Part shown: in pieces, positions 1 through 237 of the stretch
Numbering within the stretch: the first letter of the stretch is position 1
Layout: every line of letters begins with the position of its first letter
Assembly (NCBI RefSeq): GCF_003334335.1
Contig: NZ_QOWQ01000232.1
From: Escherichia coli
GTDB lineage: Bacteria > Pseudomonadota > Gammaproteobacteria > Enterobacterales > Enterobacteriaceae
Length of the DNA stretch: 237 nt
Strand: one strand, 5' to 3'
The notes under the pieces: model-generated
What the model saw: only the letters and a program-made list of their open reading frames with translations
What the model was told of the DNA's origin: nothing
Database searches by the model: none
Program-made: the position numbers and the translations under genes

Positions 1-237
1 GTTTGAATGGAAAGGGCTGAAGAAATTATGCGTGGCAGTCTCCTTTCGGTCCATAATAGCAGAACAAAAGAAAGAGCCAGAAATGACGGTCAGATATTAT
101 ATCAGTTCTGCTGATTTAACCGCTGAGAAATTCGCCACAGCGATCCGAAATCACTGGCACGTGGAGAATAAGCTGCACTGGCGTCTGGACGTGGTAATGA
201 ATGAAGACGACTGCAAAATAAGAAGAGGAAATGCAGC
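1..237 (+). CDS. ISAs1-family (H-repeat-associated) DDE transposase, internal/C-terminal fragment; partial at both window edges
   Basis: Seen in sequence: the frame with codon phase starting at base 2 is open for 78 codons to the window end, while + frames 1 and 3 hit TGA at bases 4-6 and 18-20. The translation is [78 protein letters not shown]. Established knowledge, recalled rather than searched: the segment [30 protein letters not shown] matches the conserved C-terminal region of ISAs1-family H-repeat transposases known from Escherichia coli and relatives. No start or stop codon is in the window, so the true gene boundaries lie outside it. Confidence 0.85.
1..237 (+). mobile_element. Interior of an ISAs1-family insertion sequence (H-repeat element); element ends and inverted repeats not in window
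   Basis: Inference from the transposase CDS: ISAs1-family elements are about 1.2-1.4 kb and consist mostly of this one transposase gene, so a window inside the gene is inside the element. No terminal inverted repeats or target-site duplications are visible here, so whether the element is complete cannot be judged. Confidence 0.7.

What the first reader, a model, noticed from the sequence alone, without database searches (positions are those of the whole stretch)
146..194. Conserved catalytic-region motif [15 protein letters not shown] is intact
The motif R-x-HW-x-[VI]-EN-x-LHW-x-LD is the signature C-terminal block of IS4-superfamily and ISAs1 DDE transposases, and I believe the glutamate at bases 164-166 is the catalytic E of the DDE triad. 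Here it is uninterrupted by frameshift or stop, which is consistent with a functional or recently active copy rather than a decayed relic, at least over this portion.
Basis: partly seen in the sequence, partly recalled or inferred. Interest (0 to 1): 0.3.

Follow-up and report, generated by a model that had tools for sequence, protein, structure and literature searches.

The report
Known E. coli ISEc1 transposase motif
The window is an internal piece of yhhI, the well-known transposase gene of the E. coli insertion sequence ISEc1 (the "H-repeat" of Rhs elements), and the flagged motif is that family's conserved active-site helix, so the finding is correct but ordinary.

Summary
Frame 2 of the window reads [15 protein letters not shown] at bases 146-190 (not 194), and GAG at 164-166 encodes the glutamate. 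The window is 100% identical to E. coli K-12 yhhI codons 252-329. yhhI is the transposase gene of the 1291-bp ISAs1-family element ISEc1 (H-repeat B, in RhsB).

The full ORF is intact at 378 aa. It scores 412 bits against NCBIfam's ISAs1 model (cut-off 70). In 125 diverse relatives (35-54% identity), H302, W303, E306, H310 and D314 are invariant, and D109 and D172 are each present in 124 of 125.

Three caveats apply. The full motif is specific to ISAs1; the IS4 "YREK" residues Y, R and K are absent. Broken copies keep the motif unchanged, so an intact motif does not show activity. No target-site duplications flank any of nine copies, and the literature reports no observed transposition. This is already known and of low interest.

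The parts
2..235 (+). Internal part of the yhhI coding sequence (ISEc1 / H-repeat B transposase), codons 252-329 of 378, in frame 2
   Evidence: Open frame. 100% identity to L001:4001-4237 inside the annotated yhhI CDS at L001:3249-4385. Residue numbering.
146..190 (+). Motif [15 protein letters not shown] (aa 300-314), the C1 / catalytic-helix block of ISAs1-family transposases
   Evidence: Family consensus is R-x-H-W-x-[IV]-E-N-x-L-H-W-x-L-D, with H302, W303, E306, H310 and D314 invariant, and R300 123/125, N307 110/125, L309 112/125, W311 120/125, L313 122/125.
164..166 (+). GAG codon for E306, the inferred glutamate of the D109-D172-E306 triad
   Evidence: Invariant in 125/125. Lies in predicted helix 304-316, after the beta insertion domain. 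Appears to map to PF01609 model position 164, as Tn5 E326 does. Paired with E326 by hhalign.
152..157 (+). Codons H302-W303 (invariant). W303 corresponds to Tn5 W323; H302 sits where IS4-family enzymes have the R of YREK
176..190 (+). Codons H310-W311-R312-L313-D314, the second HW-x-L-D half of the motif. H310 and D314 are invariant; H310 pairs with Tn5 H329
   Evidence: The DNA-level internal repeat 152-165 / 176-189 is family D11.
23..106 (+). Two predicted beta strands (aa 259-269 and 278-286) of the insertion domain that sits between strand 5 and the catalytic helix
   Evidence: Secondary structure of the AlphaFold model. Overall fold match to Tn5 transposase.
8..10 (+). Codon W254, kept in at least 90% of the family (function not tested)

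Best explanation
The window is codons 252-329 of yhhI. yhhI is the single transposase gene of ISEc1 (H-repeat B), a 1291-bp ISAs1-family insertion sequence that lies downstream of the rhsB toxin gene in E. coli.

The flagged motif forms the end of one helix and most of the next (aa 292-302 and 304-316). These close an RNase-H-like catalytic core. E306 (bases 164-166), together with D109 on strand 1 and D172 just after strand 4, would bind the two divalent metal ions that catalyse DNA strand cleavage and strand transfer at the CAGGG... inverted-repeat ends. Because the fold is close to Tn5 transposase and includes a beta insertion domain, transposition most likely runs by a Tn5/IS4-like cut-and-paste route.

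Shown here: gene identity, an intact ORF, family membership, conservation of the residues, the fold, the terminal inverted repeats, and purifying selection. Inferred: the catalytic role of each residue and the cut-and-paste mechanism. Not shown: that this copy still transposes.
For: - Identity: 100% match to yhhI. The other K-12 copies match the window at only 97%.
- Intact 378-aa ORF.
- Pfam DDE_Tnp_1_assoc (aa 8-94) plus DDE_Tnp_1 (aa 102-343, E 1.7e-29).
- NCBIfam ISAs1 equivalog: 412 bits against a cut-off of 70.
- Conservation in 125 representatives at 35-54% identity: E306, H302, W303, H310 and D314 are 125/125; D109 and D172 are 124/125.
- AlphaFold model with pLDDT 95.2 and pTM 0.92. 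Strand 1 is 105-113 (holds D109), strand 4 is 168-171 (D172 is the next residue), a beta insertion spans 221-286, and helix 304-316 holds E306.
- The Tn5 sequence and numbering were verified against PDB entries.
- Short fragments around E306 and around Tn5 E326 align to PF01609 positions 146-179 and 145-180. This appears to put both glutamates at position 164.
- hhalign of the C-terminal blocks pairs HWHVEN with RWRIEE.
- Element limits are L001:3105-4395 (1291 bp), with 12/16 matching terminal inverted repeats CAGGGAAAGATCATCA / CAGGGCAAGATTACGA.
- dN/dS among the three intact copies compared is 0.04-0.19.
- PMC2266710: in IS4-type transposases, the E of region C1 is the DDE glutamate.
Against: - No residue-level structural superposition or metal-site geometry could be obtained.
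- Full-length profile-profile alignment to Tn5 failed. The C-terminal alignment is weak (E 0.048).
- Pfam's alignment of Tn5 starts at residue 125, so it does not map the first aspartate.
- A second invariant acid, D314, lies two helical turns after E306.
- No target-site duplication flanks any of nine copies.
- Transposition of the H-repeat has not been observed, according to PMC3032704.
Confidence: 0.9

Rival explanations
1. The gene is intact but this element no longer transposes. It would be an immobile or host-retained (possibly domesticated) transposase gene carried along with Rhs elements, so the intact motif reflects past or non-transposition function rather than a recently active copy.
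For: - None of nine copies has a target-site duplication.
- Copies lie almost always in Rhs contexts.
- The element is very rare on plasmids: 25 of 72,556 records. The three records examined carry chromosomal neighbours.
- PMC3032704 says transposition has not been observed.
- 3 of the 9 copies examined are pseudogenes.
Against: - dN/dS of 0.04-0.19 among the three intact copies compared.
- The catalytic residues are intact and both inverted repeats are conserved.
- Copy number varies from 1 to 9 per genome.
- Other ISAs1-family members are listed among captured functional elements (ISPmar4, PMC3281130).
- ISAs1-family reads were reported as abundant on plasmids from E. coli W3110 populations in PMC9841684, which is indirect evidence only.
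Confidence: 0.35
2. The third catalytic carboxylate is D314 (bases 188-190), not E306, which would make the triad DDD as in piggyBac.
For: D314 is also invariant in 125/125 and lies on the same helix, eight residues (about two turns) after E306. piggyBac, a DDD enzyme from my own knowledge, is the second-best structural match.
Against: The W-x-[IV]-E core shared across PF01609 places E306, not D314, opposite Tn5 E326. In the weak alignment D314 pairs with K333 of Tn5, which is a DNA-contacting rather than metal-binding residue (from my own knowledge of the Tn5 literature).
Confidence: 0.05
3. The open frame and motif are a chance resemblance in non-coding DNA or in DNA coding on the other strand.
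For: None.
Against: - Pfam E 2.3e-06 on the fragment alone.
- 100% identity to an annotated, widely conserved gene.
- The other five frames are closed.
- No Rfam match.
Confidence: 0

Closest known systems
ISEc1 / H-repeat B (yhhI) of the E. coli K-12 RhsB element; paralogues ydcC, ybfD, ybfL and yncI
   Same: Identical over all 237 bases. Same gene, same frame, same motif.
   Different: Nothing. The window cannot be told apart from the yhhI allele present in many E. coli genomes: 1853 records have their best match at 99% identity or more.
ISAs1 family of insertion sequences (founder ISAs1 of Aeromonas salmonicida; ISPmar4 of Paracoccus)
   Same: Transposase matches the NCBIfam ISAs1 equivalog and has the Pfam architecture DDE_Tnp_1_assoc + DDE_Tnp_1. 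The element is 1291 bp with one ORF and CAGGG-type inverted repeats.
   Different: The 8-10 bp target duplications that I recall ISfinder giving for the family were not found at nine E. coli copies. No transposition has been reported for the H-repeat (PMC3032704).
Tn5 (IS50) transposase, IS4 family
   Different: About 10% sequence identity. The Y, R and K of YREK are replaced: I299 and H302 at the Y and R positions; L313 by spacing or D314 by the weak alignment at the K position. The N-terminal domain is different (PF13808 rather than Tnp_DNA_bind), there is no Tn5 dimerisation domain, and the protein is 378 aa rather than 476.

Membership tests
ISAs1 family transposase / IS | Protein scores above the curated cut-off of the NCBIfam equivalog model NF033564 (transpos_ISAs1) | tested here: met
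   412.4 bits against a cut-off of 70, covering model positions 1-314 of 314.
ISAs1 family transposase / IS | Family signature block R-x-HW-x-[IV]-EN-x-LHW-x-LD with an invariant E | tested here: met
   The window reads [15 protein letters not shown]. The residues invariant in 125 representatives are all present.
ISAs1 family transposase / IS | Element of about 1.2-1.5 kb with a single transposase ORF and terminal inverted repeats starting CAGGG (ISfinder description, from memory) | tested here: met
   Homology between copies ends at L001:3105 and 4395, giving 1291 bp. One 378-aa ORF. Ends are CAGGGAAAGATCATCA / CAGGGCAAGATTACGA, 12/16 matching.
ISAs1 family transposase / IS | Target-site duplication of 8-10 bp flanking the element (ISfinder description, from memory) | tested here: not met
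   No direct repeat in the 15-20 bp flanks of nine copies. This may reflect old insertions or recombination between copies rather than a different mechanism.
ISAs1 family transposase / IS | Demonstrated transposition | not testable with these tools
   PMC3032704 says none has been observed for the H-repeat. PMC3281130 lists ISPmar4 (ISAs1 family) among functional elements captured in Paracoccus.
DDE transposases with an RNase-H-like fold | Strand 1 Asp, post-strand 4 Asp and helix Glu in an RNase-H-like core | tested here: met
IS4 family in the strict sense | Y-(2)-R-(3)-E-(6)-K signature in region C1 (PMC2266710) | tested here: not met
   Only the E is kept. The Y position is I/V (I299), the R position is the invariant H302, and the K position (E+7) is L313, with the invariant D314 next to it. 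This is consistent with ISAs1 being classed as a separate family.

The most novel reading that the evidence does not exclude
The H-repeat transposase may be retained by E. coli for a host-level role, for example promoting rearrangement or switching of Rhs toxin C-terminal tips, rather than as a selfish insertion sequence. This would explain strong purifying selection alongside near-universal presence in Rhs contexts, no target-site duplications and no observed transposition.
Probability: 0.05. Interest if true: 0.55.

Novelty: already known. Interest (0 to 1): 0.05.

Why it matters
It matters little beyond correct annotation. The window is a fragment of a long-catalogued E. coli gene (yhhI, ISEc1/H-repeat). 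The analysis confirms which codon most likely encodes the catalytic glutamate. It also gives a practical caution: an intact catalytic motif in a short window does not distinguish working transposase genes from pseudogenised copies. One minor open point is that no ISAs1-family transposase has a solved structure or a mutational map, and the family replaces the Y, R and K of the IS4 YREK signature with other conserved residues, including the invariant H302 and D314.

Tried and rejected
- Sequence search of the PDB with YhhI alone and with the family profile gave only chance hits such as CheY and YenC2, E around 1.
- Full-length and core-only hhalign of the ISAs1 profile against Tn5 alone, or against a 63-sequence Tn5 profile, gave meaningless alignments with probability below 1% (first part, 78). 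Only the C-terminal block aligned sensibly, and weakly (E 0.048).
- Mapping the aspartates through Pfam failed because Pfam aligns Tn5 only from residue 125.
- The plasmid search meant to find fresh insertions with duplications returned 25 records. The three records examined carry chromosomal neighbours, and none has a duplication.
- Rfam scan of the window found nothing.
- The original H-repeat paper (Zhao et al. 1993, PMC204594) is not held in the library.
- The IS4 review PMC2266710 does not treat ISAs1.
- Reverse-strand ORFs of 20-21 aa were dismissed as chance.

Full report
**Observation**

The window is open only in frame 2 of the + strand. Bases 2-235 give 78 codons with no stop. The other five frames have 2-8 stops each.

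Frame 2 reads [78 protein letters not shown]. The motif [15 protein letters not shown] occupies bases 146-190. GAG at 164-166 encodes the glutamate. The fragment alone matches Pfam DDE_Tnp_1 at E 2.3e-06.

**Identity**

The 237 bases are 100% identical to yhhI of E. coli K-12. The stretch matches 5234 of 5426 complete E. coli genomes, at a median of 3 places per genome and a maximum of 9.

In K-12 the gene lies downstream of rhsB and yhhH and is annotated "ISAs1-like element ISEc1 family transposase". The other K-12 copies (ydcC, ybfL) match the window at only 97%, so the window carries the yhhI allele. The window covers codons 252-329 of a 378-aa ORF with no interruption.

**Family**

- YhhI has Pfam DDE_Tnp_1_assoc (aa 8-94) and DDE_Tnp_1 (aa 102-343, E 1.7e-29).
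- It scores 412 bits on NCBIfam NF033564 "ISAs1 family transposase", against a cut-off of 70.
- An exhaustive search of 1.84 billion cluster representatives found 12,768 relatives at E ≤ 1e-10.
- I aligned YhhI with 124 full-length representatives at 35-54% identity (alignment A1).
- Within the motif, H302, W303, E306, H310 and D314 are invariant. R300 is 123/125, N307 110/125, L309 112/125, W311 120/125 and L313 122/125.
- Upstream, D109 (in IAIDGK) and D172 (in TIDAMGCQ) are each 124/125.

**Is E306 the catalytic glutamate?**

Sequence-only links to solved structures failed. Structure gave the link instead.

An AlphaFold2 model built from A1 has mean pLDDT 95.2 and pTM 0.92. Its order of elements is that of an RNase-H-like core with an inserted beta domain:
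- strand 105-113, which contains D109
- strands 126-133 and 138-145
- helix 148-161
- strand 168-171, with D172 as the next residue
- helix 178-186
- strand 190-195
- an inserted beta domain (221-286)
- helices 292-302 and 304-316, the latter holding E306

I checked my Tn5 sequence and numbering against PDB chains. From my own knowledge of the Tn5 literature, its catalytic residues are D97, D188 and E326.

Both proteins are significant members of PF01609. A 38-aa fragment around Tn5 E326 aligns, apparently without gaps, to model positions 145-180. The equivalent YhhI fragment aligns to positions 146-179 with one extra residue. If that extra residue lies after the glutamate, as the hhalign alignment shows, both glutamates fall on model position 164.

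hhalign of the C-terminal blocks alone is weak (E 0.048) but pairs HWHVEN with RWRIEE and H310 with H329. PMC2266710 states that the E of region C1 is the DDE glutamate in IS4-type enzymes.

I conclude that E306 is very probably the catalytic glutamate. The residue-level superposition and metal geometry remain undone. D314, also invariant and two helical turns further on, is a low-probability rival.

The motif is not an IS4-superfamily signature. In the alignment, the IS4 hallmark Y-(2)-R-(3)-E-(6)-K corresponds in ISAs1 to I299, H302, E306 and D314 (L313 by strict spacing). Y, R and K are all missing, which fits ISAs1 being a separate family. Only W-x-[IV]-E...H is shared with Tn5.

**Functional or relic?**

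Comparing copies defines the element as L001:3105-4395, which is 1291 bp. Its terminal inverted repeats are CAGGGAAAGATCATCA / CAGGGCAAGATTACGA, 12/16 matching.

Of nine copies read, six have intact 378-aa ORFs and three are broken: L003 has a stop at codon 19, L004a is frameshifted, and ybfL is a pseudogene. L003 and L004a keep [15 protein letters not shown] letter for letter. An intact motif therefore does not discriminate working copies from broken ones.

Pairwise dN/dS among the three intact copies compared is 0.04-0.19, so the protein has been under purifying selection.

Against recent mobility:
- None of the nine copies has a target-site duplication.
- Copies sit almost always in Rhs contexts.
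- Only 25 of 72,556 plasmid records hold the element. The three records examined carry chromosomal neighbours.
- PMC3032704 says transposition of the H-repeat has not been observed.

Other family members are listed among captured functional elements (ISPmar4, PMC3281130). PMC9841684 reports abundant ISAs1-family reads on plasmids from W3110 populations, which is suggestive only.

**Other checks**

No Rfam family matches the window. Reverse-strand ORFs are 20-21 aa.

**Verdict**

The finding is correct and its interpretation is essentially supported, but this is a textbook, already annotated gene. Novelty: already known. Interest: 0.05.

Noticed in passing
L001:3090-3104 / 4396-4410, and the equivalent flanks in L002-L008: None of nine ISEc1/H-repeat copies has a flanking target-site duplication, although all keep CAGGG... 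terminal inverted repeats. This fits old insertions, recombination between copies, or movement together with Rhs segments.
   Followed up: partly
L003:3145-4281 and L004:3144-4281: Pseudogenised copies (a stop at codon 19; a frameshift) retain the motif [15 protein letters not shown] unchanged.
   Followed up: yes
window 152-165 and 176-189: An internal direct repeat, CACTGGCACGTGGA / CACTGGCGTCTGGA (11/14 identical), encodes HW-H-V-E and HW-R-L-D. Both H-W pairs and both acids are invariant or nearly so in the family, and they lie eight residues (about two helical turns) apart.
   Followed up: partly
window 188-190 (D314): In a weak alignment to Tn5, the invariant D314 pairs with K333, the K of the IS4 YREK motif. 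This would be a charge reversal at a position that contacts DNA in Tn5. Its role is unknown.
   Followed up: no
L001:4380-4395: The yhhI stop codon (4383-4385) lies inside the right terminal inverted repeat, so the transposase ORF runs into the element's end.
   Followed up: no
L005:8303-10926 (K-12 RhsC region): Three adjacent partial or complete H-repeat segments (ybfQ, ybfL, ybfD) lie head to tail. This suggests tandem or nested copies and deletions.
   Followed up: no
L001:3105-4395 versus L001:4550-8237: The element has 40% G+C against 56% in the flanking yhhJ-rbbA genes, which is consistent with foreign origin.
   Followed up: no
Proteins P0008, P0093, P0090 and P0098: Some database entries name close YhhI relatives "receptor [Shigella sonnei]", or show fusions with RHS-repeat or other domains. 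These are probably annotation or gene-calling artefacts at Rhs/IS junctions.
   Followed up: no
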